The translations under genes and the position numbers were made by a program. Positions 11,631 to 36,800 of a stretch of 64,000 nt of DNA are shown here, in pieces (within the stretch, counting starts at the first letter, position 1; the number at the start of each line of letters is the position of its first letter). The DNA comes from Phoronis australis (lineage: Eukaryota > Animalia > Phoronida), in the NCBI GenBank assembly GCA_002633005.1, contig NMRA01000071.1, positions 748,449 to 812,448 on the forward strand. Reading direction: 5' to 3'. Under the pieces are notes generated by a model that saw only the letters and a program-made list of their open reading frames with translations, had not been told where the DNA came from and made no database searches.

Positions 11631-13083
11631 AGGCGAAGGCAACCTTTTTTCATGTCATTTTTAGCAAAAATAATGTCCGTTGGTTATCCCAGACATATTT
11701 TACACTTAATTGTAATTTTTCGTAAATTAATTACTCGTCCTCTACTCCGGAAGTGACGTAGTGGGAGGCAAGAATTTCGCGCCAATTCGGCTCTGCATTG
11801 AGTTAAGTTTGAGGATCTGTACTACTTTTGTTTTTGGGCTGTTTTTCTAAGATTGTCGTCACCACATCCCATCGAAGAGTTTTCTATGACAAACTAGGTT
11901 GTAAGAGAACCCAATTACGTTGGATTTCGGGATTCTTTAGTTTGTATTAACTGGAGTCGGCGATCCATATCACAGTGACAGTAGTAATGTGAGTAACGGA
12001 GACATTGTTCATGTAGCAGTGGTGACGAGGATTTTTTTTTCACGGACAGTTAATGGGTGTGTATACTTTGTATGCTTGAGCCCGAGTATAATGAGGCAGG
12101 GTACGCACAGACACAACTGTCCTACTTGCCCCAGTGTCCCGCGACACACTCCCACTGGATGGCGACCTGAGCACCCAAACTGCTTACATCCCGCAGTGTG
12201 ACTCCCTCGCCACACACCTGGCAACTTTCTAAATAGCTCCAACACTTAAGACAAGTACACAATAAACTCATCTGTTGGTTGGACGACGAACTGCCCTCTT
12301 CACTGGGTGTCGTACTGGCCATTCACTCCCACAACTCAACGTCGCGGCAGGGCTGCTTACAGGCTCTGTGTTAGAGACAACAGCAAAAGGCCAATCACTG
12401 CTAGTTCCCAGAATTGCACGCTCTGTGCCTTCGGAGGCACGGGTGACAGTAGATGAAGTGCCTCCAGTCACTGTAGTGGCCATAGCTCGCGAAGCTTCTC
12501 GCTTCAAAAACGCACTTCTCGAGGGTGGCGACGGAGCACTGCCGGGAATCGACACCTACGGTATCGCACCCTTCTTCATGCGTTGTTTCGCAAGGACCTT
12601 CATCAATTCAGCGTACATATCTCTGTCGTAATCTGACGGCAGAAAATGCTTGCCACACACTCGGTAACCCTCCACTGCTTTGAGCGCTGCGTTGACGGGT
12701 AACGCTACGTTCTTCACACGAACGAGCCAAGTACGGCAAAGTGTGTCATCCTTTGGAAAGCGATGCAAAGCCTGGTATTCCCAAAGCGCGCCTGAGACGA
12801 TAATGAGTACATCCCGGTACGCAGCAACAGTGTGGCATGTTGTCTGACTCGTAAACAAAAGCAAACGACGACCGAACTTGTCACAACCGAGGTAGAACAA
12901 TGACTGACTCGACAGCTCTCACAGTCAGAGTATCTGAAAAGAAATTGGCGCGAAATTCTTGCCTCCCAAAACGTCACTTCCGGAGTAGAGCACGAGAAAT
13001 CAATTAAGTGAAAAATATGTCTGGGATAACCAACGAACCTTATTTTTTGCTAAAAATGACATAAAAAAAGATTGCCTTCGCCT
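11631..13083 (-). mobile_element. Kolobok-type DNA transposon, same family as 3426-4760 (copy 2, opposite orientation)
   Basis: TTAA at 11627-11630 and 13084-13087; same AGGCGAAGGCAA termini; TIR about 150 bp; THAP remnant on minus (LHRFPKDDTLCRTWLVRVKN..YRVCGKHFLPSDYDRD..RMKKGAIP, about 12839-12100) with stops and frameshifts. Confidence 0.9.
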
Positions 13084-15127: not shown

Positions 15128-15644
15128 AATTCAGCCAACTTTGGATTATTGCTGATTATGAAATGTTCATGGGTTATCCGTCATTCCCCAAAACTCTTTT
15201 TAGGATTTGTGTTTAAATTATTGCAGTTTTGCTCAAGGGGCAATCAAAAGTGATTTTTCCTGGACAACTCATGATGTGAGAACTTGTAGACAAAAGCGTC
15301 GGAAATGATCAAAATGGGGACTGATTTAGAAGACTACATAGATTTCATCTTCATCTTTTATTACATTATCAATGAATCTGTCCTTATGTAGCTCATACTG
15401 CCCTAACACATGCCTTATATCACCTTCTGCGCTTTACTCTGGACCAATATTGTGCTTCATATTTCTATTATAAAAAATGTTAACATTCAAGTATTAGTTA
15501 ACGCCTTGTTATCTTTTTGTGTGAAAAATAACTTAAAATCAACACGATATCGTGGCAAAGAATACTACATGAACCCCTAGTTACATTTGGTGATTGACTG
15601 ATTGAAAATGTTACTTAATGGTTAAAAATTCATTTTAGGTATTG

Positions 15645-18600
15645 ATGGCATCTCCGACAGAAGTGTGTGTGCCAGAGGGTGTTCAGAAGGAGGTGCGTGC
15701 TGTCCTGTTATCCAAGATTGGTGGTGTCCCTCTCAAACAGTTCAACAATGACTTCAAGAGTTTGATAGGCCATCCCTTCAATTGGAGGGGCCTTGGCTTC
15801 TCTTCGCTTATTGACTGTGTTAAGGCCATGCCGAATGTTATAAGGTTGGTTCTTCATGTTCAGTGTTAGTCATCAAAAGTATTATTGTAGAGTGTTTTAT
15901 ATTTGCTAATGCATGGCAGCGGTTTGTTGGTCTTTTTTTTAAAACTACACATTTGGAGGTCACTGTGATAGACTGTAGGTTTGTGTTCTAGGATACAGCC
16001 CATTTTAAGATATAAGTCTTGCGATTTTATCTTTCCCGTGAACGAAGTAACTAGGAATTCATGGCCACGAGGTATATTTTGTGAATTGAAGTTTATAAAC
16101 AGTAATTGTGCTGCATCTTGCCTCATCTCTTTGTGTTTGATGCAACAAGTGTTCAACACATGGAGGAGTCTGATCAGTTGGTCATTTTTGTGCTGTTTTG
16201 TTTCTGTATTTTTATTTGTTTATTTTTGATTTTGTTTCTCTATATGTTAGTGTGCTGCATTTGTCTAATTGTATTTGGATATGTGTTTTAGGATCGACAG
16301 CAGCTCTGGTGAGACAAAACTTTACGGAATTGGTGATGGAACATCGTTCATGACTAAATCTCAAATCAAGGCAGCACGTGGAATGGTCTCCCCTGATCAT
16401 GTTGTCAAAAAGACTGATATCTCTGGTGCATTTGATGGTTAGTGGTGGGGAGGATCTTGGGTAAACAGGTTTCTGGAAGTAAATCTTGATTGAATAGGTT
16501 TCTTCTGATGAGGTGTTCTTGCTTTCTGTGGTCTCTGAAATTTGTGAAAAGCAGATTTGAAGTCTTTGCAACTAATGAGATGTGAGCACTAAATGTGTCA
16601 TTTTTAGTTGTAATAAATTCATATTTTGTGGAGGATGAATGATGGTCAGTTTGGTCAGTTTGGTCAGTCTGATTATCACTCGTAGCATTCTTCATGCACT
16701 ACATTATGATCATTTATTATTGTTTGATAACATCTAAATTATGACAATTGGCGATAAACCTTGTACGATAATTTTGTGTAACTCATGACAATTATTTAAT
16801 TATATGTTGCCATTGATATAGATAAATTCATGTAAAGAATTTGCCCAGATTGTGATCAACCAAAATTGCCTGTACAGGGGCCAAACATTCTGTTTGTTTC
16901 ATTGTATTTGAAAGCTCTTGGTCTATTTACCCCAACCTCATACCTATGTACATCTTTCGGTCATTTTTCTGCCATCTTCAAGCATTATAAGATTACAAGA
17001 TTTTAGATTTAGAGATACTATTTCATAAGTTAATTGCAGGAAATACTACAAATCTTTATTTTGTATCCATGGTGACTGGCAGTTCACACATTTGTGTCTC
17101 TTAGCAATATTCAGTGTCCTTTTCACTTTGTTTATATTTCAAAACTCACCTCAGAAAGGGATAACAATAGTAACATACATGTATATCTCAATGTTATTCC
17201 CTCAAATTTCTCCCCAAGTCTTGACATTGTTCTGTGTTAGAGCACTGTGTTTCCCTTCCTTTGCAGGCTCTGAGCCCGACCTGAGTAAGTTTGAGAAGTT
17301 CCTGCCGAACCTCAGTGGTCTGTACGCTGTCTGTATGAAGAGGGAGCCACAACACACTCAAGAGGTTATACTTACGTGACTCCATCCCTCACTGCAGTAT
17401 TTGTTGAGTTGCCTAGTAGACTTACTCACTATGAGTAATGACCAAAGCTAATCTTGCTCTGACTTTTCTGATTTTACAGTTTGTTCTTTTTGATTATTGA
17501 GCACAATTTAGACTGGTTCAACCATAATCAGTCCTTGTCTGCTTAGCTTAACATGATAATGTCATGAAATGAAAAGGCCTGGTTATTACTTTACTGTCGT
17601 TTGTGTAGACTTTTTTGTACATTCTGTTTTGAAAAATCTTTTTGCTTGTTTTGTTAACAGCCAACCTGTTCTCTTTCAGTCTGTTCGTGCGCTGTTCTCC
17701 ACTGTGGGACCAGTAGAGACTGTCAACTTCTCCAATCTGTGAGTTCATTAGAATGTGTGAAACCTGAATATACTTAGAAGCGTCAGCGTGGGTGAATTGT
17801 GTAATATGATTGTGTCCCAATTTTTCCAAGCTCTCCTTGTCACTAAACCTGGTTTCTGCCTATAAGGGCATACTTCTGCCTGTAAGGACATACTTCTGCC
17901 TGTAAGGGCATACTTCTGCCTGTAAGGGCATACCTCTGAAAAAATGACAATTCTTTCCATTTTTTCTTCTGGTTAGATGTATTCTGCACCATGTGCTGGC
18001 CGTTGTTAGTGATCAACACAGCTACGAGCATTTTGTTTACGGTGCAACCATGGACACTTTTCAATGCTGTATTTCTTCAAATTCATTGAATTTAAATGCA
18101 AATTAAGTTAAATTAAATTAAATACACCTGCTTTTCATTTTTCATATGTTTTGGTTTGTGTCTGATTGTGTCATATTTCGAGTTATATAATCTGTGAAAC
18201 TTGCCGTGATCATCGTGTCATTTTATTCCAGTTATGTGTTCATACGCTACGCTGAGAAGCTTCATGCTTGCCGTGCCATCATGAAGTTCAAGGACATAGG
18301 AGTCACCATACCCGTGGAGAGGTCGGCACGTACAAATTCACCTTCTCGAAATAAAAATACTAGTCAACTGGAAAGTTCTGGTCGCACAAAATTGCTTTCT
18401 CGGGGCAAACATGGTGGAGGGAAAAAGGGAAGTAGAGGTAAGTGTAATGAACGTGTCCTGGTCCAGCACAGCATGTGTATACAACACAGTGGTAGGATCA
18501 TAACAAAACAATTTCAATTGCAAATACAGACAATGCATGGTGTGCATTTGTTGGGATTAGTATTTCTTAGAAAGGAGCTGATCTCACTGGAATGTAATGA

Positions 18601-21600
18601 ACTCTGGAACCCTCCTTTTGGTCTCCATTGCACCACATTCACACAGCATTTTGTCCCTTGCAGTTCTCTTGTCTCCATTGCACCACATTCACACAGCATT
18701 TTGTCCCTTGCAGTTCTCTTGTCTCCATTGCACCACATTCACACAGCATTTTGTCCCTTGCAGTTCTTGTCCATGTGCTAGAATTTCAACACAGACTTAA
18801 GGCACAGTGAACTGGTAGTACTTGTCAGTTTTCATATTTTTGTTGTATTTTTCAAATCTCAGAGAAGTTTTAGGAATCATTTCATGAAACGTGCTAATGT
18901 ACTGAGTTTAGCTCAGAATTGACCAAAAAATGTTTTTTGAGACTTGAGAGCTTTCATTTTTACTTGAAAAAGCATAAAGTGTAAACCGAATCAGACATTG
19001 TACATACCTCACGACTTGCAATGAAGTGTTATGTTGCTTGTTTATCTCTTGATAAGTGTGGTTCTTTATTTAGCACTTACCTGTTCATCATCAGTTAAGT
19101 GCACATGGGATTACTAAAAAATAATCGACTGTCACAGGGCTGTTACAACTTGTTGTGAAGAATAACAGGTAATCGTGATAAGAATGTCTCAGTCATTATT
19201 CTGTGTCATCCTTTCAGATCGGCCTCCGCCAGCTGCTGCTGAGCCCTCTGTTGGAGTGCCATGTGTGTCTGATGATGAGATGCCCGAATTAGAAGCAGAT
19301 GAAGATTATTCACCTCCCCCTAGTGGTAGTGAGCAGAGTCTACCAGATGACAGCTGCAAACTGTTCTTAGGAAATATACCGCCTGATTTCACTGAGGTAC
19401 ATGAGATGAAAACTTAATTTTTTTATTTTATTTAGTTGTTCATGTATACCAAACTTAACGTCTGCTGCCATTTCATTCTACGCTATGTTTTTTTTGCCGG
19501 GACTCATTTGTTCCCATTCATTGTCCACCATTCATCTCTCACCGATCAGTAGTTGCTGTTTTTGTATACTTTGTGGTCGAATCTAATCAAAAAGTGTTAA
19601 CTTTCTGAATTGCTCATTTTGAATGCTTTCAGGCAAGCCTTTTGCGTCTGTTATCCAGTAAGAGAGTTGAGCGAGTGCAGGTGGTCAGGGAGGCCTTTAG
19701 ACCGTAAGTTAATCTACACCTCTCTGCCTCATGATGGAAGTTCATTCTATGTGTCAATGCTAGACAGACATGTTTGTTAACTTTTATCAGAAATTTCTCA
19801 ATGCAAAAACATTGATATTCACAAAGTGATTTTGCATCCAGATCCGCAGTTTATTTAAAAAAAAGTGTTTATGCACCCATATATTTATATGTGGATGCAT
19901 TGTGCCGTCATCTCTGTCCGTCTGTCTGGGCGGTGTCTTTTCGGCGTCTGCTGCTCTATCTCCAAAACGGGTTGACGTTTGTTCATGAAATTTTGCACAT
20001 GTGTTTCTTTCATGGATGGGACAGCATGAGCAAAGTTTCGGACGGATCCGACTACTGGTGTGCCCCCTAGTGGCAATTTTAATTTTTTACGTTTACTTCT
20101 GTATCTTCAAAGATCCTCAACATATTTTCATAAAATTTGGTATATAGGCATTTATTAGTGAGTCGACGGTATCCTCCTGTTTTTGGATGGATTTGATGTA
20201 GTTTGCGCCACCTAGTCGCCATTTTTACTGTTTTCGAGTCTGTTTTTAGCGTCCACCCCTCTATCAGCCAAACTGCTCTAAGCATGATTGTGAAAATTGG
20301 CATGTATGTTCTTACTATGAAGAGGGTGGTTGACGTTGATTTTGCGACTTTGACTACTGTGGCACCTCCTAGTGGTAGTTTTGTTATTTTGCGCATATGG
20401 CTATATCTCCTGAACCATTTGCAGGATCTTTACTAAGTTTAGTAAGTGCATTTTATGATGATGATAATGGACGACGACAACTTTGGAACAGATCTGACTA
20501 CTGGTGTGCCACCTTGTGGCAATTTTATTTGTTTACATTTATCTCTGTATCTTCAAAGGTCCTCAACGTATTTTTATAAAATTTGGTGTACAAGCTTCTG
20601 TTAGTGAGGTGACACTATCTTTCTGTTTTCAGATGGATTCGACCTAGTTTGCTAGGTTTGCCTAGTGGCCATATTTACTGATTTTGAGTCTGTTTTTTAA
20701 AGCCCACCCCTCAGTCAACCAAACTGCTTTCAGGATAATTGTAAAAATTGGCTTGTTTGTTTTTGCTATGAAGTGAACAGGTGACGACGATTTTCTGATG
20801 ACTTCGACTTATGTGGTGCCTCCTAGTGGCAGTTTCGTTTTTTTCGCCCATGGCTTTATCTCCTAAACCGTTTGCCGGATCTTCGTTAAATTTAATTACT
20901 AAGTTTATTTATATGAAGCTAACAATAGACATTGACTACTTTCAGGCGGATCCATTGAATAGTGTGCCCTTTTGTGGCAATTTCATTTTTTTCCTTTGTT
21001 TCTTTAAAGTTTCATGACGGATTTCTATGAAATTTAGTTAAGCTTACTATTAAAGAAGCAAGGACATGTTCCTGTTTTGGGATGGAATGTACGTTTTGCG
21101 CCATCTAGTGGCCATTTTTATGACACAAATAAACAACCCTAAAAGCACACCATTTGCGATGCATTTGTGTGCGCATTTCAACGCTCTGCGTTGCTCTTGT
21201 TTATAGTCTTTACTTGCCAGTCATCCTTGAACTTGAAATACCGACACGAGTTCACTTTGTTGATGGTTTTGCTTGGTAGAGAGAAGTTCAGTAACACCTT
21301 TATTGAAGTTCAGTAACACCTTTATTGTCAACTGGTCTGCACTATGCAGTACTGTGCTATGCAGTAGTGTGCTATGCAGTACTGTGCTATGCAGTACTGC
21401 GCTATGCAGTACTGTGCTATATGGTACTTCGCTAAGCGATACTGTACGATGCGGTAGACGTGTATTCTACTTTTCTCTGCAAAACTGCACTCTGCCATAC
21501 CATATTGTATTGCTCTTTCTTTCAGGTACGCCTATGCATACTGTCACAATGCCGACAATTTGAACTCCATTATTCAAGAGTTCAATGGCCTGAAGTTTGA

Positions 21601-24600
21601 AGGTCGCAGGCTTAAGGTTGCCAAATTCGTCCCCAAAGCTGTGCGTCGTGAGGCAATGTTTGAACAACTTGGGAGTACGAATGACACCAAATCAAAAGGT
21701 GGTGTTCAGAATATGAACTCTGACCACCAGAAGGCTGGAGCAGGTCTTACTGATGGTTGGTATACAGCACCACCTAGTGTGCGACATGGTGTGACATCGC
21801 GACTCCATTTGAGATTTTCAATCTAGACACTCTGGGGGTCGTGTCTTCATCAATTCTCTTCTTAGTTTTAATTGTAAAGTTGGCTATGTTGTGGTTTCCA
21901 TCGTCATGTGACTTTTCCTCAGTAGGTGTCTCTCTGTCAGTTGGCTCCCTATGACATGGCTTCACGATTGGGAAGTTCATGATCTGTTTTTTGTCTGTCA
22001 GAGGTCTCCTTGTATCAGCTTGCTGTGTATTAAATTCTGTATAATTTTGTGTCGCAGTAATTTTGGTGTTCTGTTTGAATCTTGTGTTTGGGCAAACAAG
22101 GTCTCTTCAGGCATTGTTACTGAGGCGACTGCGTGGGTGATTAGGAGGGTGAGAACGGTGTGTCAGGAGAACTGTGTCGGGTGATTATGTTGCTGCAAAT
22201 TTGGTCATTATTTTTATTCACTGGGATCAGTTCTTTTCTGCACTAATCTACTAACTTGTTGTTTATGTCTTGGTTTAGTCTTTGCATTTTTTGTTCATTG
22301 TGTTCTGTTCCTCATTGTTTCTATTCGCCATGTTAAGACAAAACAACAGAACTACTCTCCAAGAAGAACACCTATCAAAATCATGGCACCACCCGCAACA
22401 TAGACACAGGCACAGCCCTTAACAGAGACACAGACCTGACTGAGAAGGAGGATCAGGTGCGCAACAAAATGAAATCAGGCAAAAACAGCAAGATGAGAGA
22501 CGAACATGGTAGTGGTAGAGGTACAGATTTTGTTATGTTGATTTCTGACTTAAAAGTAGTGTTGCCACAGTTACATGCGTTGTTGTCTGTCTTGCTGCAT
22601 GTTTGCAGCAAATGTGTTGGAACATTTGCTGAATCTGCCTTGTTGAATGTTTACAACATAAAACCGAAAAGTATTTATCATTCTGGGATTTTTTCTTGGA
22701 GCAGCAAGTTTTTTTGAAAAGTCTCACTTGAAATGTGAAACTTGTATTTCATAGCTTGAATCTTAACGGTCTCAAGGATTGCGCCCCAGGATTGGACACT
22801 CAGCTCCGTAACATCACGCAACGCCATCTATTGAGTCACAATATGGAGGGTCTTGTCTGAAGTTTTTTAGAAATTGACTTTGCATTATATCTGCATTGTA
22901 TTTGCATTATATCGAGGTTCTCCTTTGCATTATATCGAGGTTCTCATCCACCCCCTTACATCCAGTCACTAGTAAGACGAAGCTCAGTGGAGTAGAAATG
23001 CAATGTTCAATTGTCTGTTCAATAAAGGCAGGATTCAAACCCGTGTCTCCCATAATAGAGTCAGATACTCAAACCACTGCACCACAGTCTCTCCTCTTGA
23101 ATTAACATAACATCCAAGTAACCCTGCTCATAGAGCTCCAGACATGCTTGTGTGGTTCTATAGTGTGCTGCTCACTCTTTGTATGTTACTCATTAACATT
23201 CATGGAGTAAATATGTACCACCTGCCATATTGTAAGTACACCAGTCTACATCACCTGCTTGTTGTTTTGTTTCCCAAATGTTCTTTTGTGTTGTGTGACA
23301 GATGCCCAATCAACAAGTCACTCAGGTAAGTTGCTAGGTATGTCGGTAAATCCCGCTACTGGACTTGTCGCACACTGGCTTAAGTCTAACATACATGTAG
23401 GCCTTGTGTAATGCTACTGCTTGACTGTCACTACAGTTCTTGTTAATATCACCGGCTTCACTAAGCTTGGATAACAGAGTGGGTTATATGTTATGAATTA
23501 ACCAGTTATCTAATTGGCACCAAATCATACGGTAGTTTTTTATTTTAATGTAGTTTTTTGATTTTTTAATTTGAAGCATATGTTGATTGTATTCCTTAGT
23601 TGGATTGCTTGTTAAACAATTACTTTTAAATTTTGTTACGCAGGCAATAAAAAACAAGCTGTTGTCACTAAAGTGACACCAGAGACCCCTGATGGAGACT
23701 TGAGGCCATTGTCAGAATTGCGCAATATCCCCCCACTTCTGTCCCAGGATGAATTAGCCATGGTGAATGGTTGTCATTCTAAAGGTATTCGCTCACCAGA
23801 CTTGCTGTTGTTGTGGTTATTGTCTGAAATGTTCTCGCTGATCCCTTTTATGTACTGAACAAATCTTAAGACCTTTGGTGCCTTGAAAACACTCTGATGT
23901 TCCTTCCTAACTGGAGGCTTCTTGCTATGAAACAATATTTTACTGTCTGTCACATTCTGGTGTGTCTCTCCTACTGCACACTGCTGCCCGCTGTTGTATT
24001 CTTGGTTAATTGCATGCTGATCCTGACTACTAAACCGTCTCCATTGTGATTGTTGCTATAGAATGTTGCTTTGCTCTGCATTCTCTTGTCAGTGCTCTAC
24101 CAGACTGTTTCTATGGTGACTGTCTACTGGAATGTGCTGGTGGTAATGTTAGATGCTGCTGCCCTCTGTTGGGTGTTATCTTAGTTTAACTTCTTGATAC
24201 AGCATGGTGTTACTTTCTATGTTCGTTTGTCTATATTTCCTTGGTGCTGTATGGGTTATCACTATGCTGTATGAGTTGCTGGTCTGTACTTGTATTTAAG
24301 TGTCTTGCTGTCTTTGTTCTGTTGGATATACGAGCACTCGCTGGGTCAAGGATGTACATTGTCATGGTGTTGTTTTAGTTGTACTTGAAACTTTGTTTTT
24401 AAATGTTCTATTGAAAAATAACGTGTATAGTTTAGCTGACTTATGGGAAATGAAAACATTCACTGCTTTGACGTGAGGAGATGCGCATTGTTTGGTTGTT
24501 CTCTGTGTGAACTTGATGTTGGTGTTATTGCCCACTCGACTATACTTGACGTATACATGCTGTTTGGACTACATTGTAGAGGACACAAAGCCTCGCCTCG

Positions 24601-27600
24601 CTGGTAATGAGCAAAAAATGGAATTACGTCTTACTAACTTCCCCTTTGGAACAACGGAGGTTAGTTTACTGGTTTTCTTACTGTTCTATTTTGATGATTG
24701 TTTGTCAAGTTCAAATTGATGGCAAAATCTGAGAAGGAACATAATTACTAAGTCTTTTGAAAATTAGAGATTTTCACTTCAAATTGTTTCCAATGGTATA
24801 TCGTCCATTTTATTACATATATATTATTAGTTTTAGAAGACCATTATTGGTGAAGACCAAACTTGATGCATGAGGTAACACACTGGATTAAGTGACATGG
24901 TGGAGCCTAGTGTAGAAGGTTGGGTTAACTTGCTTGATGTTAGGGCTGTGTTGTTATGGAGATTGCCAAGTTAGAGGGATCATTTTAGAAACATGTGGGT
25001 ATGGGTGCATGTCCCACACGGCCTCAAGTCTATGGGCCAATTTGGAGGATCTTTGGGCCTTTGGATCAATTTAGTTTTTTATTCTTTGTCACTTCCAATT
25101 TCAATGGACCCTTTGGTCTTTGCTAAGCAACTAGAGTGTATCAGTGAAATTGCACATTCCCAAATGAATCCCCGAGTTAAATCAAAACATTTAAAATAGT
25201 TTGGAAGTGGATGTCCAGAGGTAATAGTTGTATTACCTTTAACAAGTCTTGATATAACTTAAGGCTTACTATTGATGTTCTTGTTTGTAGAGATCTCTGA
25301 TGGAACTTCTCCAGCGGTATAATGTGCTTAAAGTGAGAATAAAGAACAACGACAGTAAGCCGTGAGTATTAGTTTCATAATTATACAATATAGTGTGCAG
25401 TGAGTATTAGTTTCGTAATTATACAATAGAGTGTGCAGTGAGTATTAGTTTCATAATTATACAATAGAGTGTGCAGTGAGTATTAGTTTCATAATTATAC
25501 AATAGAGTGTGCAGTGAGTATTAGTTTCATAATTATACAGTAGAGTGTGCAGTGAGTATTAGTTTCATAATTATACAATAGAGTGGGCAGTGAGTATTAG
25601 TTTCATAATTATACAATAGAATGCGCAGTGAGGATTAGTTTCATAATTATACAGTAGAGTGCGCAGTGAGTAATAGTTTCATAATTATACAATAGAGTGT
25701 GCAGTGAGTATTAGTTTCATAATTACAATATAGTGTGCAGTGAGTATTAGTTTCATAATTATACAATGGAGTGCGCAGTGAGTATTAGTTTCATAATTAT
25801 ACATTATAGTGTGCAGTGAGTATTAATTTCATAATTATACAATAGAGTGCGCAGTGAGTATTAGTTTCATAATTATACAATACAGTGGGCAGTGAGTATT
25901 AGTTTCATAATTATACAATATAGTGTGCAGTGAGTATTAGTTTCACAATAGAGTGCGCAGTGAGGCTCACACAAGGGCATCCAAGTGTACATCCACCTCA
26001 AGCAAAACAACACTTATCTCTTTTGTTGGTGATAACGATTTTGCGAAAATGTCTGTTAAGATTTGTCAATTTTTTTCAAAACTGCTCTGCAGTTCAGCAG
26101 TAGGTTTATTACTGTGACTCGGTTCATCGCTCTTGTCGCTGTATGCATCCTACCATTTCAGAACAATCGCCTTCGCTGACTGCCTTGATCAAGCTTCTGC
26201 CAGTCAAGCCATCAGTGACCTCAATGGTTCTTACCACTGGGACAGACGGCTGTCAGTCAGCTATGGCAGTATACACTACAACCCTGAACGCGTCTCTCAA
26301 ACAGCTGGTCAGTTGATACACGAGTCTCGCTCTATAAACTTGACCTCTTTATGATGACATGGTTTATTTTCATTATGCCCATCTCTCTTTCTTGTAATTA
26401 TTGATTTGGACACATATCGTTCAATCTGTAATTAAAGTGTAATTATCTTTGTGATGTGTTTATATTGTTTGTTTATGTGTTATCGTCCACACGTGGCTGA
26501 GTAAATGTTGTATAAAGTAAACTTGAAAATATCAGTGTTTATCTTCACCTTTATCATCAAGGTGGCTTGTACGCCACTCTTGCTCTTGTCAGCCACCTCA
26601 TCATATGATGCCAAAAAATTGTAAACAAGTTCCAGATAACTCCTTCCCTACCTTCTATGTCCCTGACTCCTCCCCCTATTATGTGTCACTCCCATTGACA
26701 AGTGGTTATGAGCAGTGCTTCAACAATTCCCTTAAATCAAACACTATCTAGCATGTTATGATGGTCATCACTGAAAAGCAATATGTTGGAAAACCATGGT
26801 CACTGTGTGTGATATGTTATCTTATTGTTGGTCTGTATTCTTTCTTTCAGTTGAGAGCTTACAACCAGTAAGTCCCCATGTCGCTGGTCAACCCCTGCCC
26901 AACAGCCAAGTCAGCGCTTCGGTTGCCGATAAACCGACTCCTCCCCCCACATCCATTGACCCGCCCATTACCCCGCCCAGTGGGGTGGAGTGTCCAGCAG
27001 GCATGAAAAGCATGATACTACGTATGAAGACTCAAGGAATGCCTGCCCTCCCTGATAGCCTCACAGTATTGGTCACATCAGTTGTAGACAAGCATCACTT
27101 CTGGGGACACCTGCTGGACTTGGTGAGTATTCCAGTCATAATTGTAATAAAGATAATTCCAAAATAATGATTTTATAACTACCACTTTCAGCTTTTGTAT
27201 AACACAATCCATTTTTATTTAATTTTAACTATTAAGTTGTATCAGCAACATAGCGCAGTGCCCTTGTCACACAAGGTGGTGATGTTGTTACAGCAACACA
27301 GCACTGTGCCCTTGTCATACCTGGTGGTGATGTTGTTACAGCAACACAGTACTGTGCCCTTGTCATACCTGGTGGTGATGTTGCTACAGCAACACAGCAC
27401 TGTGCCCTTGTCATACCTGGTGGTGATGTTGTTACAGCAACATAGCACAGTGCCCTTGTCATACCTGGTGGTGATGTTGCTACAGCAACACAGCACTGTG
27501 CCCTTGTCATACCTGGTGGTGATGTTGCTACAGCAACACATCACTGTGCCCGTGTCATACCTGGTGGTGATGCCACTATGCACTTCTGTAAACTCTTTAC

Positions 27601-30042
27601 TTTTTGTGTATTTTATCCTATTTCATGTGCATAAAATGCAACTCATTTGTTTTCGTCCATTTCAGAGAGAAGGTTTGGAGAAGTTGTCCGATTTGATGAT
27701 GAAGATAGGTGCGCAAAGCCATCGTATTCCTCTGTCCGAGGGACAGAACAGATGTGCTGCACTGTATGAGGAGGAGTGGTGTAGGTGAGTAGGAGGGGCT
27801 TATAGAAGGAGGGATGCTTTTGTGGAGTGGGAGGGGCTTATTGAAGAAGGGATGCTTTTGTGGAGTGCAAGGGGCTTATAGAAGGAGGGATGCTGTTGGT
27901 GAGTAGAAAGGCTTGTAGAATCAGTAATGGTGTTTGTAAGTGGGAGGTTTTTATATATGAATGAATGGTGTTGAGTGAGAAGAGGAGCTTATAGAATGAG
28001 GACTAGCAAAGGTGAGTGGGAGGGCTTCCAGATGGAGGAATGGCATTCAGTAGTTGTCAAAATTAACTAGACAGACTTGGGAAGAGATCTGCCAGACTAT
28101 GATTCTTGAACAAACTTTACTTTTTTTTGAAAGAAGGCGAGTTAAAACAATCTTCTGACTGCATGTTCAATGGTTATGACGTATGGTGTTCTTCCACACA
28201 TTAAGTCTTATGATTACAGGGCTTGGATCAAGGAGTTCTTACCCAACAGTATGTACCGTGTGTTCTATCCAGATTATGGCAACACTGCTATAGTGAGCCT
28301 GGAGGAGATGTGTGAGATACCCAACAAATACTGGACACTGCCTCCCCAGGCTGTGCCCTTCAGGTCTGTAGGTGAGTCCACGTACTGGAAAATGTCTCCT
28401 CAGGTTTTGGCCTTTAGTACTGTAGGTGGATCCAGGTAGTGGAAACTGTCTCCTCAGGCTGTGCCCTTCAGTTCTGTAGGTGAGACCTTCCCTTCATATT
28501 GTAACAAGTCTTTAGGCATTGAAATCCACAATCTCTTACACCCATCTTTAAAATTCATTGTGTTGACTCGTGGCATCAGGTGTAAACATAATTTTGGTTT
28601 CTAATACAGCGAGTTAATGTTCATTACTGCAAATGATAAACGATGGATCAACACGAGTTCAGGGATTGATTCAACGACAGGATTTGCTGCCACTTGCCTG
28701 ATTTTACCGTTTCAATTTTGCCATTTTGCCATGACCTAAGAAGCGTGTACAGAAGCGTTGTTAAAAACCACCTCGCGTTGAGAACTTGTTTTCTTCACTA
28801 CTTGTTGGTCATGTTCACAGTTGTGATAGTACCTCATGGATTTGTACAAGAACTACTGCCACTAAGAAGTCTGTTTATCAACAATGCTCGTCTTTTATGT
28901 TGTGTGGAGTAGAGTGATTGCAGCATTAGCAATGGCTTCATGGCACTAAAACACTGACTGAGTTAGTTTGATATATCATGGATTAATGTATGAATAGTTA
29001 CTTATAGAAATGTTTGGCTTCTCAAATTATATTCCTCCTAAATAGTTAGCTTAGTTTTGTGTTAACCTGGAGACACACGATAATCTTTAGCCAAAATATA
29101 TGCGTTATGTTTTTGTTCTCTGGTACTTGATGGTGAAACAAATTCTTTTTGGTTTTAGTAACTGTTTGAACGGTGGTAGATAATTGGCCTGCGAGTCATG
29201 ATATTGTAAATGCTTAACAATGGACTAGATTGATATTTAGATAGCCTCAGTTTGGAAACCATTGCCATCTGGAGTTGAAAGGAGATTATGTGTTTATATT
29301 ATGCAGCAAGTCTCGCAACTATGCATGACAAGGAGGTCAACTCCATGACAAGGAGGTCAACTCGATGACAAGGAGGTCAACTCCATGACAAGGAGGTCAA
29401 CTCGATGACAAGGTCAACTCCATGACAAGGAGGTCAACTCCATGACAAGGAGGTCAACTCCATGACAAGGAGGTCAACTCCATGACAAGGAGGTCAACTC
29501 CATGACTGCAGCATCCTAATTGATATGATTACGCATCCTTCTCGTGACGTTGAAAAGTAATGTACCGGTATTTTGTTTCAGTTGCCAAGGACGACATGCC
29601 TAATGTTGAAAACACCATCATAGTGGTGAAGAAGGTCAAGAACAACTTAGCAGATAAAGAGGTAGGCACAGTAGGAAAGCACGTCTTAATAACAATATAA
29701 ATACTTCGCAGACAGTAAGCTAGGTGGCGCCACATTCAGTTTGGCATCTGCATGTAATGAGAGTGCTCACAATGCCGTCAGACAAACGAGTTCCCACAAG
29801 ACCAGTGTTCCGGCCACTAATAATAGTCAACATGATCCTATCAAAGTAGACTGAGCTCAATGATCTAAGAATTAAGTCACAGGCAAGCAGACCAGTACCA
29901 TGACAATCTTTATTTTCTAAGTAATGTTTAAGAAGAATTCAACTAAGCTGTGCAGTGCTTGATTTACTTTCTGACAGACAGCTAATGGATTGATAACATT
30001 ATCTTATTTTTCTCTTTTTAGCCAATTGAGGTGCATTTTTAG
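15645..30042 (+). CDS. LOTUS (OST-HTH) + 3 RRM + extended Tudor protein, TDRD10-like Tudor; about 825 aa, 19 coding exons
   Basis: Exons: 15645-15844, 16292-16437, 17267-17364, 17680-17738, 18232-18437, 19218-19396, 19633-19703, 21526-21755, 22338-22520, 23302-23325, 23644-23784, 24580-24659, 25291-25361, 26162-26307, 26851-27122, 27666-27784, 28220-28371, 29582-29661, 30022-30042 (TAG); total 2478 nt, open frame, all GT-AG. LOTUS: VQKEVRAVLLSKIGGVPLKQFNNDFKSLIGHPFNWRGLGFSSLIDCVKAMPNVIR. RRMs: YAVCMK..YVFIRY; KLFLGNIP..YAYAY..FNGLKFEGRRLKV; LRLTNFP..IAFADC..LNGSYHWDRRLSV. Tudor: VLVTSVVDKHHFWG..RCAALYEEEWCRAWI..YRVFYPDYGN..YWTLPPQAVPF. The linker exons are the least certain. Confidence 0.88.
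17853..17936. repeat. 20-bp minisatellite x4
   Basis: TACTTCTGCCTGTAAGGGCA units. Confidence 0.95.
18620..18770. repeat. 50-bp tandem repeat x3
   Basis: GTCTCCATTGCACCACATTCACACAGCATTTTGTCCCTTGCAGTTCTCTT units. Confidence 0.95.
19868..21202 (+). mobile_element. Helentron-associated non-autonomous element (HINE/DINE-1-like), intronic
   Basis: T-rich insertion site; 5' inverted repeat ATGCACCCATATA..TATATGTGGATGCAT; GTCY microsatellite; internal degenerate ~145-bp repeats (TGAAATTTGG..CCTAGTGGC) in ~440-bp higher order; 3' hairpin CAACGCTCTGCGTTG followed by CTCTTGTTT. Confidence 0.75.
21338..21452. repeat. 15-bp minisatellite, about 7 copies
   Basis: TGCAGTACTGTGCTA units decaying toward the 3' end. 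Confidence 0.9.
22765..23095 (-). mobile_element. tRNA-derived SINE (degenerate)
   Basis: Minus-strand head GGAGAGACTGTGGTGCAGTGG (A box) ... GGTTTGAATCCTGCC (B box) followed by a non-tRNA body; 3' boundary approximate. Confidence 0.6.
25362..25965. repeat. 38-bp minisatellite, about 16 copies, starting exactly at a splice donor
   Basis: GTGAGTATTAGTTTCATAATTATACAATAGAGTGTGCA; the first GT is the donor of exon 25291-25361. Confidence 0.97.
27243..27572. repeat. 45-bp minisatellite, about 7 copies (intronic; explains spurious ORFs)
   Basis: CAGCAACACAGCACTGTGCCCTTGTCATACCTGGTGGTGATGTTGYTA-type units. Confidence 0.95.
27765..28050. repeat. Degenerate ~40-bp purine-rich repeat derived from the exon end and donor
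   Basis: GAGTRGGAGGGGCTTATAGAAGGAGGGATGCTTTTGTG units decaying away from the donor at 27785. Confidence 0.7.
28342..28487. repeat. Triplicated exon 3' end (~55-bp unit) including the donor
   Basis: CC.CAGGCTGTGCCCTTCAG.TCTGTAGGTGAG at about 28344, 28397 (diverged) and 28452. Confidence 0.85.
29324..29506. repeat. 20-bp minisatellite x9
   Basis: CATGACAAGGAGGTCAACTC units. Confidence 0.95.
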
Positions 30043-32723
30043 CCGGAATATTCCGTAGCACAGAAGTCACCTGCTGCTCTGTAGGATCTTCATTGACGCA
30101 ATACTTGGAAGCCACAACTTGTTGATCATAATGAGAGGTCATGTGATCTGTTGTTCTTTATGATATAGCGAGATATATATTGCCGATGGCTAAGTGTGCC
30201 TAAGTGTAGTCGCTCTATCTGTCTCATACCCACCTTGTATTTTGCCCATACCAACCACGGTCTTATGTCTGACTGTTCAGCATTCTTAAAGGAAGACCTT
30301 TGCTCGGATATTTGTAAAGTGGTTGATAACCACAAAAAATGTGGTGTTAAGAAGAAAATAAACATGCACTTGTAGTCCTGTGATTGTTGTGCATCAAAAT
30401 TTTGCCTTTTCCTGTTAAACTCGGTGTTCATGAACACCATCTTGATATCTTTTGACATGTTTGTGTTCACTGCTGCCTTGAACACATTGAGTAGTCTGCA
30501 TTGTGACAACTTTTGTGAACTCATTAGAAGTGTGCCTGTGATGAACCATGTGTGTGTGTGGAAACATGATAAGCTAGCCAGATATACTGGACAGCCCTCA
30601 ACATGTTGAAGTGTTGGGCTAGGTTGGTGCTGGCTAATGTGTCTTCAGTCATGTTTCATCAACTTGATGTGTTGTCCAAGTTAAACATTTAGCATCATGG
30701 CCATGTTCCACACAATATAATTCACCTCCCACTGTGTCTTCAAAGGTTGAAGATGAAAGGTCAATACAGGAAGACTCAACAGAGTTAGTGGTGACCAGTG
30801 ATTGATGTATCCCTTTATAGTAGGCTATATATGATAACTATTGTTCAATGGCTGTTATGTGTTATATAATAAGACATCCAGTGATCTGTTCTGGTCATTA
30901 TATTCACTAATATCCTCTGTAGCCTCTTTTTAATAAGCATCAGTACATTTTTCACATGCCCTCGGATCTAATTCAGGTAGAGATTTCACAAATGAACAGT
31001 TTTCCATGCTGGATGAAAGCTTTATCTTGTGATCTTGTGAAAAAGGGATTTTTAACTACTAGATAGTCTGTGGTAGGTGATTCTCACCTACACTGATGTT
31101 TGCACAGTACTTGGACATGGGAGATAACTCCTGAAGATTGATGTTTTATGACAGTGCAATGTCTTGAGAGATAAAGTTTCCTGTTGTCATTACAATATTA
31201 CCAGTAGCATTCATTGAAGGTATGCATAATGCAGTCTTTGCACATTTAGTGCTTCTTGTAAGTGTTCATGTATACCACTGGATGAGAAATGCTGTAATCT
31301 CTATAGTACAGTTCTTATGATAATTATGCAGCATTTCAAGCAGATGTTTGTATGTGGGAACTAATGGTGATACCAAGTCATGTTTTGGAGCATACTCTGA
31401 ATGAGGTGTGAAGTTGCACCTAGTATATGACTTGGTTTGAGAAAGAAAATCTTTAGCTCTTTGAACATTGCCTCTGAGGCACTGCAGTCCCTGCACCATT
31501 GCCAATAGATGGCGCTGTTATTGGTGCACGAAACTATTATTGATATGTCACTGCTGTTTCAGCCATTATGATGTTTGTCTGTGTTTGTTTGTAGCTAAGT
31601 TTGTTTTTAACATATGCTTAGTATGCCAGGTGTTTACTAAAGCTCTGAATCACTTGGTTGGGCCTCCCTACTATAATGTGCTTTCTGCATTGGTGTTAGA
31701 TTCTTTGTAATATCTAGTTGCCAAAAGATGGTATATAATATGGTTCTGGAAAAAGTCTTGTAGAAGAGTATGTGTGCCCAGTTCTTCTTGAGATTTGTGC
31801 ATGTGTCCCACTTGACTTCTGTCTTTCTCATTCCCAGTACTGTTGGCACCAGGAAGGGAGAGTTATGATTCAGAGTCACCTCTCTTTACAACTTCTATGA
31901 TTTTATTACATTAAAGGCTTGCATGTTGCACACTTGACCCCGCACCCCACCCTGTGCAAATGCCTGCATTCTTGCTTAATTGTCTCACTCTTTAGGCCTT
32001 GTTTTCCTTGTCTTCTGGCCTGAAATTAGTGACAATTTGTTTTTACGTTTTGAAGGAGACACATAGTAACTGCTGTCTCTGACTGTTCTGTGCATTAGCT
32101 TTTAGCTGTTGACCAAGTTTGATCTATAATCTTGACAGCTATAGGTTGCATGGATTTTCCTTGACTGCCTTTTTTCCACCTCTTTCTGATGTTCTGGGAC
32201 TGTGAGAGTCACAGTCAGTTAAAGAATATGCAATTATTATTGTCTTACAAGAGAGTCTACCTTCTGTTATTCTCGGGTCACTGCTACACATTGTGCAGAT
32301 TCTCCAGGCTGTGCGTGTGCGACCCCTGTTGACAAATTTGGATTATGCTTCAGCTATGATTCTGCAGCTGCTCTATGTATCTGTATTTGTTTTTGTTTTG
32401 CTCTTGCAGACCGAGCAGGTTGAGCAAAATCTCAACCCTTCTTAAATCTTGCCTTGATAGTTCTAGTGCCCGGTTACCATTAGAATAAGTTCATATAAGT
32501 CTTGATTGACATACATCTATGGAAGTCTTTAATTAATAAGTTAACTAAAATTGTCCATACCTTGTTACGGCATGTTTTGTTTGTTTTTTAAATACTCTTT
32601 CTAGAAACTCTTGTTGAAGTAGTCTCAAGCCAAAGGAGCTATTGATATCAGGTTTGGAAATTCGAACTACCTTTCTTATTGAAGTCATGGATTAAATTGA
32701 TGTTTGTATTTCTTTTCTTGGTG

Positions 32724-33861: not shown

Positions 33862-36800
33862 TCACACGAGGGTAGACAGTTCACTATCGTTGAGTTTCTT
33901 TCCTTCATAACCTACCGAAAGTGATATGTTTGCGCGTGTTTTTTCACGCCTCCAATAGTAGATACTCTGAATGACTGACGCTATACAGAAGATTACGCCA
34001 CATCCGGTGATTGTCATGGATATAATAGCGGGCGTGCTGGAGAACTCCATCATCATGTAGAATAACAAACCTGGAATATAAATATCTTTAAGTTACACAG
34101 GGCCCTACCGTATTGTTACTTGCATACGTGAAAGGTTACGAAACTGCGCGAACCTGGACCTGCCCTGTACAGGGGCGGGTCCAGGATTTTGTGTTAGGGA
34201 CAACCAGGGCAGAGTATTAGCCAGGATCGTTGCCCGTCACACATTTGTACTCAGAAACTTCCAAGTGGAATATGGAAAAATTTTAGGGGGGCATGGCCCC
34301 CTTGCCCCCGTCTTAAGCCGCCACTGCTGTATCCGACTAACATAGGTACATGTACGTAGCCGGGCTACGTGCGTCGTCACTTGAAACGAGGCGCCGAAAC
34401 TGTCGGAGAGAGAAGTGACAGGCATTGATTTCCATGTTGAACAAACAACGGCAAGAATCAGGAAATTTGTAATAAAATCACAAAATGGAAACCGATTTTG
34501 TTGCTTCATAGCCATGAACAGTCAGCTATATGAGTTCAAGTGTATCCGCCATCAAACAATAATCATAAATTTTCAGCCGCAAAACATCATTGTACCTTTA
34601 AAGCGCCGACTATCTGTATCTTCCGTCAAAGGAGCATTAATTTAAATAATAACTAATTCATATGAACAAGTATTGAGGTATCATGTGAACTTACTTATCA
34701 GGTAGGCAGGTATCGATACGAAGAAGCCCGAAACGGCTATGAAGCGAACGGAGGCAGACGACTTGAGGTAGTCGAGGGCTCTGAAAAGTAGTCACACGCA
34801 CTTTGATTGCCGTCTCTATGTGGATTGGTGCTTTGTCATCAAACTTCGTGATCGAACATGGCAGATTAAAACCAAGAGCATCCAAGAGTTTCCCAACATG
34901 CCGCATATGCTTAGCAAACAATAAAAATCATGGCCTATATTCTTATAAGGGGTGCGTTAGTCAGATCCATTTGAAAACCAACGTTAGTTGTGCTCCTCTC
35001 AACATGTATAGAAACGCTTGCGTCAAATTTTGTGAAGATCCACTGAGAACTTTTAGTAGTTATTAAGGCAGAAACATTGACAATTTGTCATGAGGGGACG
35101 CCGTAGTAGTCATGCACATATACCCTCCGGCGCAGCGCCACCTTCACTGAAATGTGAGCCTACAGTACATTTCATTATATGGCACTGTGAAAGAGTGTAA
35201 TTTGTCCAAAAATCAACACCAAGTGCTGAAAGAACTGGATATCGCGGAAGCAGCGAAGAAAATCAACTTAGCCACTCAGGATCGAGCACCACTTGTAAAT
35301 TCAGTTAAAACTTCAAAAGCGGTTGTGCTCTCTTCGTGAAGATAGAGACTGGCCAATAAGATTAAGTTTAAGCGGAGGCCGGCATTTGAAAACAGGGCAA
35401 TCCCCTATGACTGGGGAGGGGGAAGGGGAGGCGCCGTAGTTGGAACTGTCCGGAAATCAGCTACAGAGTGGGCTGTCCTCAATTTTATTACACATGCCGA
35501 ATTTCATTTCACGTAAATTCATTCCGACACTCATTACCATGCATCGTCAGTTTCACACCAGCCAAAGATCTCATTACGATCAGCCAAAGATCTCATTACG
35601 ATTCTTAGAAGAAGCGGAGATACAGAACCGTGATGTACCAAACGACCGGTCACCGATATGCACCCACGTGCGTATAGACGCGCAATAAACAATGGTGGTA
35701 GCATGCACTGAACATCGTGTTGAATATCAATGACGCTGACATTTACCATTTTAGCAACTTTCTTATTTCGGACCCCACTCGACACTGTTGATGTGTGCTA
35801 ACTCGGGTAAATGTCTTCACAACTCTTAATCTTCCAAAAGTACCACGCGGACCAATTTTCATCCGCATTATGCATTGTTAAAGTTGCATACGTCACTCGC
35901 AGTAAACTATATTGGGAAAACAGCTAATGTATATTGACATTCCTGAATCCTGCACTAACCGGTGACTTCAAACAACAGGAAGGGCTGTGTTCGTTGGCAG
36001 GTGACCATGGGTGTTATTAGAACAGATGAGAATCAAGAGCTCTACGGTGGACTTCTCTTCTAGGATGGAAATTACCGTCGGAGTTCTCGGTGTGTTACAA
36101 CATACTGGAAGCCTGTGCATCAATGGTTATTAACGTAAGTGGACGCATCAGTATATATGGTACACCGTGAAGCCGCCTCGTCTGCTTGCCTTGATTCGGT
36201 CGGACCACTTTGTGTTGTGAAAGATATACATGTACTTCGAGATGCAACCTGTCTCCAGAAATCGATATTTTGGTCTCTTAAGAGCGGCTCCGGTATGAAA
36301 ATATATAACAATTGGATTCATGAAGATGTTTCGTAACGTAGTTGTATTATGAAAGGATTTTATTACCATATCTTTTACTCACGTGACCTTAATGGATATT
36401 CCCAGGGAATTCATAGAAATTTGAAGTACGCATAAATGTAAAAAAATATGGTGTTGCCTTAATCATGTCCATCCGTGCGCCCCCCCCCCGCCCTTTACCC
36501 CAGGGTCGTATGCAAATTGTTTCTATTTTACAGGTTCGGTCAGCCTTAGCCACTCACCACGATCTAAGCAAAGGTCACGCGTCTAACGAAATACTGACGT
36601 AATTTGGCGGCACGTTATCAGGTCTGGAGTAATTGTCGAAAATACGCAGTTGCCGTTAAATATTGCGGACGGACTAGGCAAATCGATCCATTCCATTACG
36701 CATTGGAACTACCAAAAGTAAAGTTATGAATTGCAAAACCTCAGGCCAGTTCCACGATGTCTTTGACTGTTCCGACGTATCTGTAAATACTGGTTGCCGG

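What the first reader, a model, noticed from the sequence alone, without database searches (positions are those of the whole stretch)
15645..30042. LOTUS + three RRMs + single TDRD10-like extended Tudor in one protein: candidate undescribed germ-granule scaffold
Seen in sequence: a 19-exon open frame joining an N-terminal LOTUS, three RRMs with low-complexity linkers and one C-terminal extended Tudor. Established: TDRD5/Tejas and TDRD7/Tapas are LOTUS+Tudor, MARF1 is NYN+RRM+LOTUS without Tudor, and vertebrate TDRD10 is RRM+Tudor without LOTUS. The Tudor motifs LVTSVV..FW, RCAALY, WCRAW and YWTLPPQAVPF resemble my recollection of TDRD10 (LVTSIV..FW, WNRCW, FWTIPP..PF). Inference: this may be an ancestral, longer TDRD10-type protein coupling a Vasa-type helicase, RNA and PIWI-pathway partners. 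I know of no characterised protein with this arrangement, but cannot exclude unannotated invertebrate homologs.
Basis: partly seen in the sequence, partly recalled or inferred. Interest (0 to 1): 0.85.

Follow-up and report, generated by a model that had tools for sequence, protein, structure and literature searches.

The report
Uncharacterised LOTUS-RRM-Tudor RNA adaptor gene
This is a real, transcribed 19-exon animal gene whose protein joins a LOTUS domain, three divergent RNA-binding (RRM) domains and one unusual Tudor domain; it likely works as an RNA-gathering adaptor of germ-granule type, and the same domain order was already listed, though not studied, in annelid gene models in 2010.

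Summary
The gene is real: 19 GT-AG exons give 825 aa, and RNA reads show 15 of 18 joints. LOTUS and Tudor pass Pfam cut-offs. All three RRMs are divergent but beat 1000 of 1000 shuffles. 'Undescribed' does not hold. A 2010 supplement lists OST-HTH+RRM+RRM+TUDOR in Capitella (831 aa) and OST-HTH+RRM+TUDOR twice in Helobdella, and amphioxus Tdrd7 has LOTUS+RRM+two Tudors. Ten paper searches found no functional study. One unnamed homologue, P0058, has LOTUS, RRMs and five Tudors of the same rare type: one cage tyrosine is lost, and two tryptophans are nearly absent from about 1400 other Tudors. Vasa binding (inconclusive) and methyl-arginine/PIWI binding (incomplete cage) are weaker than claimed, and germline expression is not shown. 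The scan's earlier notes hold no such protein. Verdict: a new member of a catalogued but unstudied LOTUS-RRM-Tudor family.

The parts
15645..30042 (+). 19-exon coding region, 825 aa. Exons: 15645-15844, 16292-16437, 17267-17364, 17680-17738, 18232-18437, 19218-19396, 19633-19703, 21526-21755, 22338-22520, 23302-23325, 23644-23784, 24580-24659, 25291-25361, 26162-26307, 26851-27122, 27666-27784, 28220-28371, 29582-29661, 30022-30042
   Evidence: open frame, all introns GT-AG; 15 of 18 joints in RNA reads; 15 synonymous to 7 non-synonymous among 22 coding read differences, 10 to 1 inside domains, pN/pS about 0.13
15669..16331 (+). LOTUS (OST-HTH) core, aa 9-80, exons 1-2, of the TDRD5/TDRD7 first-LOTUS type
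   Evidence: Pfam PF12872 E=3.2e-9; best PDB sequence hits TDRD5 3s93 and TDRD7 3rco/2lh9, then Oskar, no MARF1 at E up to 1
16332..16391 (+). divergent C-terminal extension of LOTUS, aa 81-100 (possible eLOTUS helix)
   Evidence: the homologue P0058 is predicted to have a helix here at low confidence (86-97, pLDDT about 57); register to Oskar puts T88 at L228 and R96 at K236 (inference)
17314..18328 (+). RRM1 (aa 132-200, exons 3-5), degenerate and short; RNP aromatics Y135, Y169, F171
   Evidence: 6.6 bits, 0 of 1000 shuffles; no significant likeness to RRM2/3 or to P0058's RRMs; same intron phases as RRM2/3
19355..21631 (+). RRM2 (aa 283-355, exons 6-8); RNP aromatics F286, Y321, Y323
   Evidence: 9.6 bits, 0 of 1000 shuffles; exon 8 hits RRM proteins in PDB, best E=0.001; like P0058's first RRM, 2 of 2000 shuffles
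24615..26270 (+). RRM3 (aa 525-599, exons 12-14); only F567 of the three stacking aromatics is left
   Evidence: 8.9 bits, 0 of 1000 shuffles; paralogous to RRM2, 0 of 2000 shuffles, with the same intron positions; NCBIfam RRM model E=0.0019
26991..30039 (+). single extended Tudor with an upstream P-A-G-M leader (aa 659-825, exons 15-19); cage Y736/C741/Y758/Y761 plus N763; rare W744 and W780
   Evidence: Pfam PF00567 E=3.1e-8; 65.3 bits over 4-116 of 120; residue counts; leader shared with all five P0058 repeats
30043..32500 (+). long 3' untranslated region (end not reached)
   Evidence: continuous stranded depth of 8-13 in three runs; AATAAA at 30357, 32724, 33261
15639..15644 (+). splice acceptor and 6 nt before the ATG, so an upstream 5' exon is implied (candidate donor after 14707, unverified)
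   Evidence: sequence; no joint to it was printed or 14

Best explanation
It is a transcribed, conserved gene for a non-enzymatic protein with a LOTUS domain, three RRMs and one atypical extended Tudor, which likely acts as an adaptor that gathers RNA and partner proteins in germ-granule/piRNA-type particles. Shown: the gene, most of its splicing, purifying selection, the domains, and a second protein (P0058) with the same order and the same Tudor type. Inferred steps: (1) LOTUS, by analogy to TDRD5/7 LOTUS domains that bind G-rich RNA, and RRM1/RRM2, which keep their stacking aromatics, hold single-stranded RNA; RRM3 is probably a weak binder or a protein surface. (2) The long basic, acidic and proline-rich linkers give multivalency for granule entry. 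(3) The Tudor binds a partner in a non-canonical way, since one cage tyrosine is replaced and two family-specific tryptophans make a new surface; it is probably not a standard reader of methylated PIWI. (4) The LOTUS extension may recruit Vasa (about 45%). The family is probably a LOTUS-Tudor lineage separate from TDRD5 and TDRD7, the one represented by the annelid OST-HTH+RRM+TUDOR models.
For: Frame and joints; selection; domains. P0058 has OST-HTH, RRM_1 and 5 TUDOR by Pfam. It shares the P-[AGP]-G-M leader, found 3 times in 365,668 aa of the other 149 proteins. It also shares W/F at column 744 (W in 0 of 1426 others), W at 780 (4 of 1414) and a non-aromatic residue at the second cage column, which is Y in 1228 of 1427. 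A profile of its five repeats ranks the query first of 1411 rows, 60.3 against 45.7 bits, and the query groups with 3 P0058 repeats at SH-aLRT 94. LOTUS binding to G-rich RNA: PMC7498356. Annelid models with the same order: PMC2848206 supplement. The P0058 LOTUS model is nearest to TDRD7 (Z 13.8, rmsd 1.4, 75 aligned) and TDRD5 (Z 12.4, rmsd 2.8, 80 aligned), above MARF1 (Z 8.7, rmsd 2.9, 71 aligned).
Against: No experiment exists, and every functional step is analogy. The tissue of the RNA runs is not given, and the CpG-poor gene body (o/e 0.17-0.65 against about 1 in flanks) fits a steadily expressed gene as well as a germline one. Only one homologue was in hand, of unknown taxon; the annelid sequences could not be fetched, so orthology to them rests on domain order and length alone. 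Introns 9-11 were not directly shown. Introns 9 and 11 have the weakest donors and some intronic reads, so shorter Tudor-less transcripts may exist. The comparison set of Tudors came from multi-Tudor proteins and held no identified TDRD5, 7 or 10. In mosquito Veneno the RRM is dispensable for granule entry, and a Tudor with a degenerate cage is thought not to bind Ago3 (PMC6411831).
Confidence: 0.6

Rival explanations
1. It is the full-length form of TDRD10: the bilaterian ancestor had LOTUS-RRM-Tudor, and chordates kept only RRM+Tudor.
For: TDRD10 is listed as a single piRNA-type Tudor plus RRM, function unknown (PMC12147562).
Against: No TDRD10 sequence was fetched or aligned. PMC5381599 calls tdrd10 a chordate innovation. 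The amphioxus list of 15 Tudor genes has no RRM+Tudor-only model and no LOTUS+RRM+single-Tudor model. RRM and Tudor occur together in several families (RRM-MYND-Tudor, RRM-Tudor-kinase), so the pair alone proves nothing.
Confidence: 0.5
2. It is a lineage-restricted (annelid or spiralian) offshoot of TDRD7/TDRD5: a duplicated first LOTUS was fused to an RRM-Tudor gene, with no special tie to TDRD10.
For: The LOTUS is of the TDRD5/7 first-domain type. The 2010 list shows this order only in annelids (3 of 3 RRM+TUDOR entries). PMC12147562 reports bricolage-like Tudor gains and mostly lineage-specific new groups. RRM2 and RRM3 share intron positions, which points to module duplication.
Against: P0058 is only about 27% identical yet keeps every family mark, which suggests an old family. 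It does not explain the match to the recalled TDRD10 motifs.
Confidence: 0.35
3. It is simply this species' TDRD5 or TDRD7 ortholog with added RRMs, a canonical Vasa-activating, PIWI-reading nuage scaffold.
For: N-terminal LOTUS with a single Tudor, as in TDRD5/Tejas; A19 and R96 fit eLOTUS positions; amphioxus Tdrd7 carries an RRM.
Against: T88 stands at the I/L position needed for Vasa binding. The cage is incomplete. There is only one LOTUS. An earlier unchecked note places a separate Tdrd7 on another piece of this genome (e1-10416579).
Confidence: 0.1
4. The frame joins two transcription units: LOTUS-RRM1-RRM2 ending in intron 9, and a separate RRM3-Tudor unit.
For: Joints 9-11 are not printed; exon 9 depth (up to 23) exceeds that of most exons; intron 9 has reads and an AATAAA at 23021.
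Against: Three reads fit joint 9; exons 10-11 keep the frame and are covered; P0058 and the annelid models hold all the domains in one chain.
Confidence: 0.05

Closest known systems
Annelid OST-HTH+RRM+RRM+TUDOR and OST-HTH+RRM+TUDOR gene models (Capitella 831 aa; Helobdella 608 and 712 aa; supplement of PMC2848206)
   Same: Same domain order, single Tudor, and nearly the same length as the Capitella model (825 against 831 aa)
   Different: Three RRMs here, against one or two called there (RRM1 here is degenerate and easily missed). The sequences were not seen, so orthology is untested. They are only listed there, with no function.
P0058 (unnamed, JGI/IMG, 2178 aa, 7165-nt contig)
   Same: N-terminal LOTUS, RRMs matching RRM2 and RRM3, and the same Tudor type with the leader motif, W744/W780 and an incomplete cage
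   Different: Five tandem Tudors; its third, canonical RRM follows the shared pair, whereas the window's extra RRM precedes it
TDRD7/Tapas and TDRD5/Tejas; amphioxus Bf-Tdrd7 (LOTUS+RRM+2 Tudor)
   Same: First-LOTUS type at the N-terminus, extended Tudor at the C-terminus, disordered linkers; an RRM in Bf-Tdrd7
   Different: One LOTUS with a divergent extension, three RRMs, one Tudor with an incomplete cage
Vertebrate TDRD10 (RRM + single Tudor, function unknown)
   Different: TDRD10 has no LOTUS and is reported as chordate-only; the likeness was not tested on sequence
MARF1/limkain-b1 (NYN + RRM + minimal LOTUS repeats)
   Same: LOTUS and RRM in one chain
   Different: No NYN nuclease, LOTUS before the RRMs, a Tudor present, and a LOTUS closer to TDRD5/7

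Membership tests
LOTUS (OST-HTH) domain protein | PF12872 above the curated cut-off | tested here: met
   36.9 bits against 23.8
Extended (piRNA-type) Tudor | Tudor core with N-terminal strands and helix | tested here: met
   PF00567 34.2 bits against 23; profile positions 4-116 of 120
Canonical methyl-arginine (PIWI) reader Tudor | four cage aromatics plus Asn (cage positions from my own knowledge, located as the conserved aromatic columns) | tested here: not met
   Y736, C741, Y758, Y761, N763; 1030 of 1397 other domains have all four aromatics
eLOTUS (Vasa-binding) | small residue (A/S) at Oskar 162 | tested here: met
   A19 aligns with A of TDRD7 and S of TDRD5 (rule from PMC5458760)
eLOTUS (Vasa-binding) | C-terminal helix with I/L at Oskar 228 | tested here: inconclusive
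   a helix is predicted only in the homologue and at low confidence; the ungapped register gives T88, with M87 next to it; the profile match to TDRD5 stops at position 81
eLOTUS (Vasa-activating) | conserved K/R (Oskar 236) followed by a basic tail | tested here: inconclusive
   R96 is in register, but aa 81-131 carry 7 K/R and 7 D/E (rule from bioRxiv 10.64898/2026.03.28.715021)
eLOTUS (Vasa-binding) | binding to the Vasa C-terminal RecA domain | not testable with these tools
TDRD10 | RRM plus a single extended Tudor | tested here: met
   definition from PMC12147562
TDRD10 | Tudor and RRM group with vertebrate TDRD10 | not testable with these tools
   no TDRD10 sequence was returned or 77
TDRD5/TDRD7 | N-terminal LOTUS of the first-domain type plus Tudor | tested here: met
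TDRD5/TDRD7 | orthology by LOTUS and Tudor trees | not testable with these tools
   no full TDRD5/7 sequences were among the 150 hits (only P0058 had a LOTUS)
MARF1 | NYN nuclease and tandem minimal LOTUS after the RRMs | tested here: not met
   a single N-terminal LOTUS; no NYN hit in 15 exon pieces; no room for one in the 825 aa
Annelid OST-HTH+RRM+TUDOR class | domain order LOTUS, RRM(s), one Tudor | tested here: met
Annelid OST-HTH+RRM+TUDOR class | sequence orthology to the Capitella and Helobdella models | not testable with these tools
   the supplement search returned only the list rows for these ids

The most novel reading that the evidence does not exclude
Animals have a fourth, unrecognised LOTUS family beside TDRD5, TDRD7 and MARF1: LOTUS-RRM(n)-Tudor with a non-canonical, tryptophan-marked Tudor. 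Vertebrate TDRD10 is its truncated descendant that lost the LOTUS, so TDRD10 is not a chordate invention, and its unknown function can be studied in invertebrates through the full-length adaptor.
Probability: 0.45. Interest if true: 0.68.

Novelty: new member of a known kind. Interest (0 to 1): 0.45.

Why it matters
LOTUS-Tudor proteins organise germ granules and transposon defence, and only TDRD5, TDRD7, MARF1 and Oskar-type members are studied. This gene gives an expressed, selected, read-supported model of a class that was only a line in a 2010 list. It also supplies diagnostic residues that define the class and make two questions directly testable: whether TDRD10 descends from it, and what a Tudor with an incomplete cage binds. 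It is not a new kind of system.

Tried and rejected
Word-indexed protein searches were empty and are weak evidence: LOTUS exon (17 candidates, none scored), Tudor exon (2 candidates), two-row LOTUS alignment (1044 candidates, none at E up to 10). The full HMMER search with the Tudor exon was swamped by multi-Tudor proteins: 411 hits, 150 shown, so single-Tudor orthologs scoring under 54.5 bits could lie in the 261 not shown. The metagenome scan gave one 11-residue chance match and the plasmid tblastn only noise. A single-sequence model of exon 1 was poor (pLDDT 61.5) and its fold search found nothing at E up to 0.001. Exon 2 alone matched no LOTUS structure. The protein atlas gave no result for any query, and no whole genome is held, so TDRD5, TDRD7, Vasa and Piwi of this species were not checked. 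The run finder listed no indexed RNA holder; the raw-read runs came by species label. No convincing extra cassette exon was found in introns 9-11. No complex was predicted. The careful tree did not finish; the quick tree used 74 of 1378 near-full domains, and 2 of the 5 P0058 repeats fell below the length filter. Paper search returned only irrelevant papers. PMC10740902 held nothing on LOTUS. PMC5485951 uses the name Tdrd10 for SMNDC1, a different gene. Rejected: artefact or pseudogene (joints, selection), MARF1 (no NYN, domain order), and 'architecture never seen before'.

Full report
Observation. The window is animal-type genomic DNA with about 40% GC. Nineteen exons from ATG 15645 to stop 30042 give 2478 nt and 825 aa without an internal stop, and all 18 introns are GT-AG. 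Three raw RNA runs of one study (tissue not given; about 18-19% of each run read) were laid on the region. All 15 printed joints match the model: introns 1-8 and 12-18, each in all three runs, with 1-12 reads. Five joints were not printed, and introns 9-11 are not among the printed rows; a side row of 3 reads fits intron 9. Reads lie on one strand and continue as a 3' UTR to at least 32500. Short reads cannot show one molecule from LOTUS to Tudor.

Selection. One search listed 40 differences between reads and window (14 more hidden). I dropped the 18 outside coding exons. Of the other 22, 15 are synonymous and 7 are not, 10 to 1 inside domains; pN/pS is about 0.13 and the binomial p is 6e-6. 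The gene is under purifying selection. Its body is CpG-poor (o/e 0.17-0.65 against 0.8-1.2 in the flanks), the pattern of invertebrate gene-body methylation (own knowledge). This does not point specifically to the germline.

Domains. Exon 1 passes Pfam OST-HTH and exon 17 passes TUDOR. The best solved relatives are the first LOTUS of TDRD5 and TDRD7 and TDRD1 Tudors. Each RRM is cut by two introns, so single exons score poorly. I built an RRM profile from 12 RRMs of the search hits, without the query. It finds exactly three weak hits at the proposed places, each above all 1000 shuffles. RRM2 and RRM3 are paralogues (0 of 2000 shuffles) with the same intron positions. RRM1 shows no significant likeness to them but has the same intron phases. 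By eye, RRM1 and RRM2 keep the three RNA-stacking aromatics and RRM3 keeps one.

A homologue. The full HMMER search with the Tudor exon returned 411 hits; the 150 shown are all multi-Tudor proteins. One of them, P0058 (2178 aa, unnamed, JGI/IMG), was the only one of 150 with a LOTUS. Pfam gives it OST-HTH, RRM_1 and five TUDOR. Its first two RRM-like regions match RRM2 (2 of 2000 shuffles) and RRM3 (7 of 2000) among 9 pairs tested; RRM1 matches none. The same RRM profile missed P0058's first RRM-like region and barely scored its second, so these are divergent too. Its Tudors share a P-[AGP]-G-M leader with the query. At the column of W744 they have W or F, where 0 of 1426 other domains have W. 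At W780 they have W (4 of 1414 others). At the second cage column they have N, S or T, where the query has C and 1228 of 1427 others have Y. A profile of its repeats ranks the query first, and a quick tree groups them at SH-aLRT 94, just under the tool's star. The comparison set was chosen by likeness to exon 17 and holds no identified TDRD5, 7 or 10. Identity is only 25-29%, so the family is old.

Mechanism. The protein has no catalytic domain, so it is best read as an adaptor. [quoted passage not shown] With RRM1/2 this gives up to three RNA-holding units (inferred). Vasa binding needs the C-terminal helix, a small residue at Oskar 162 and I/L at 228 (PMC5458760, passages). Activation needs a conserved K/R and a basic tail (bioRxiv 10.64898/2026.03.28.715021, passages; its supplements are closed). 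Here A19 fits. The P0058 LOTUS model is a winged helix with a low-confidence extra helix, nearest to TDRD7 and TDRD5. The ungapped register from that alignment puts T88 at position 228 and R96 at 236, and the tail is not basic. Vasa coupling is therefore open, about 45%. The Tudor lacks one of four cage aromatics in all six family domains seen, so standard reading of methylated PIWI is doubtful. In Veneno a degenerate-cage Tudor was judged unlikely to bind Ago3 and the RRM was dispensable for granules (PMC6411831, passages). I commit to a granule adaptor that holds RNA at its N-terminal half and a partner at a non-canonical Tudor surface (0.6). A germ-granule role rests on family analogy only.

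What is known. The supplement of the paper that defined OST-HTH (PMC2848206; part 1 of 4 of the text, passages, supplement searches and supplement part 6 of 12) lists OST-HTH+RRM+RRM+TUDOR for Capitella (831 aa) and OST-HTH+RRM+TUDOR for two Helobdella models (608 and 712 aa). These are all 3 of its RRM+TUDOR entries. Amphioxus Tdrd7 has LOTUS, an RRM and two Tudors, and its maternal mRNA sits in germ plasm (PMC3735472, passages and supplements). The architecture is therefore catalogued. TDRD10 is listed as RRM plus one Tudor with unknown function (PMC12147562; passages, abstract, half of Results). Its supplement could not be read and may list this family among its 12 unnamed orthogroups. PMC5381599 calls tdrd10 a chordate innovation (passages; the supplement search found nothing relevant). 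Sea-urchin TDRD5/7 are described without RRMs (PMC12925329, passages). Ten searches found no functional study of a LOTUS-RRM-single-Tudor protein and no paper holding LOTUS domain, RRM, Tudor and TDRD10 together; most subscription journals are not covered.

The TDRD10 question. It is a recollection, and no call returned a TDRD10 sequence, so I give it 0.5 for the lineage and 0.45 for the full novel reading. An unchecked note of this scan places a separate Tdrd7 elsewhere in this genome, which would argue against this gene being Tdrd7.

Caveats. The donors of introns 9 and 11 score lowest in the gene (4.0 and 3.6). Both introns carry some reads, and intron 9 has an AATAAA at 23021, so a shorter LOTUS-RRM1-RRM2 isoform is possible. 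The 5' end is not mapped. The taxon is not established; an annelid or other invertebrate is a guess from the 2010 list and the CpG pattern.

Verdict. This is a new member of a catalogued but unstudied LOTUS-RRM-Tudor class. Interest 0.45.

Noticed in passing
window 19880-21200 (intron 7): A high-copy, transcribed repeat element of about 1.3 kb with 145-150 bp internal periodicity and a 446-453 bp higher-order repeat; reads are mostly 90-95% alike. Probably a non-autonomous transposon.
   Followed up: partly
window 19678-22511 (contig 2 of run X1, 1411 nt): A contig carries the end of exon 7, exon 8 and exon 9 in spliced form, with 1-nt and 6-nt deletions, behind about 1 kb of other sequence, at high depth. 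A retrocopy or captured fragment elsewhere in the genome, or a chimeric contig.
   Followed up: no
window 22521-23301 and 23785-24579 (introns 9 and 11): Weakest donors of the gene, intronic reads and an AATAAA at 23021: possible retained-intron or Tudor-less short isoforms.
   Followed up: partly
window 28329-28484: A 54-bp minisatellite begins inside exon 17 and repeats its 3' end together with the donor site; reads use the first donor.
   Followed up: partly
window 2351-5535 (-), 12559-12918 (-), 33865-37431 (-), 59242-59490 (-), 60089-60586 (+): Neighbours by Pfam: an F5/8 type C lectin-like exon, THAP domains (transposon remnants), a Jiraiya (TMEM221-like) gene converging on the 3' UTR, and a sirtuin exon.
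   Followed up: partly
proteins P0028, P0032, P0061: RRM + MYND + multi-Tudor (TDRD1/Veneno type) in a sea anemone, a spider and a mussel: N-terminal RRMs are common in invertebrate Tudor proteins.
   Followed up: no
window 46001-54000: A second CpG-poor block (o/e 0.31-0.56) with the opposite AT skew suggests another expressed gene on the minus strand; not annotated.
   Followed up: no
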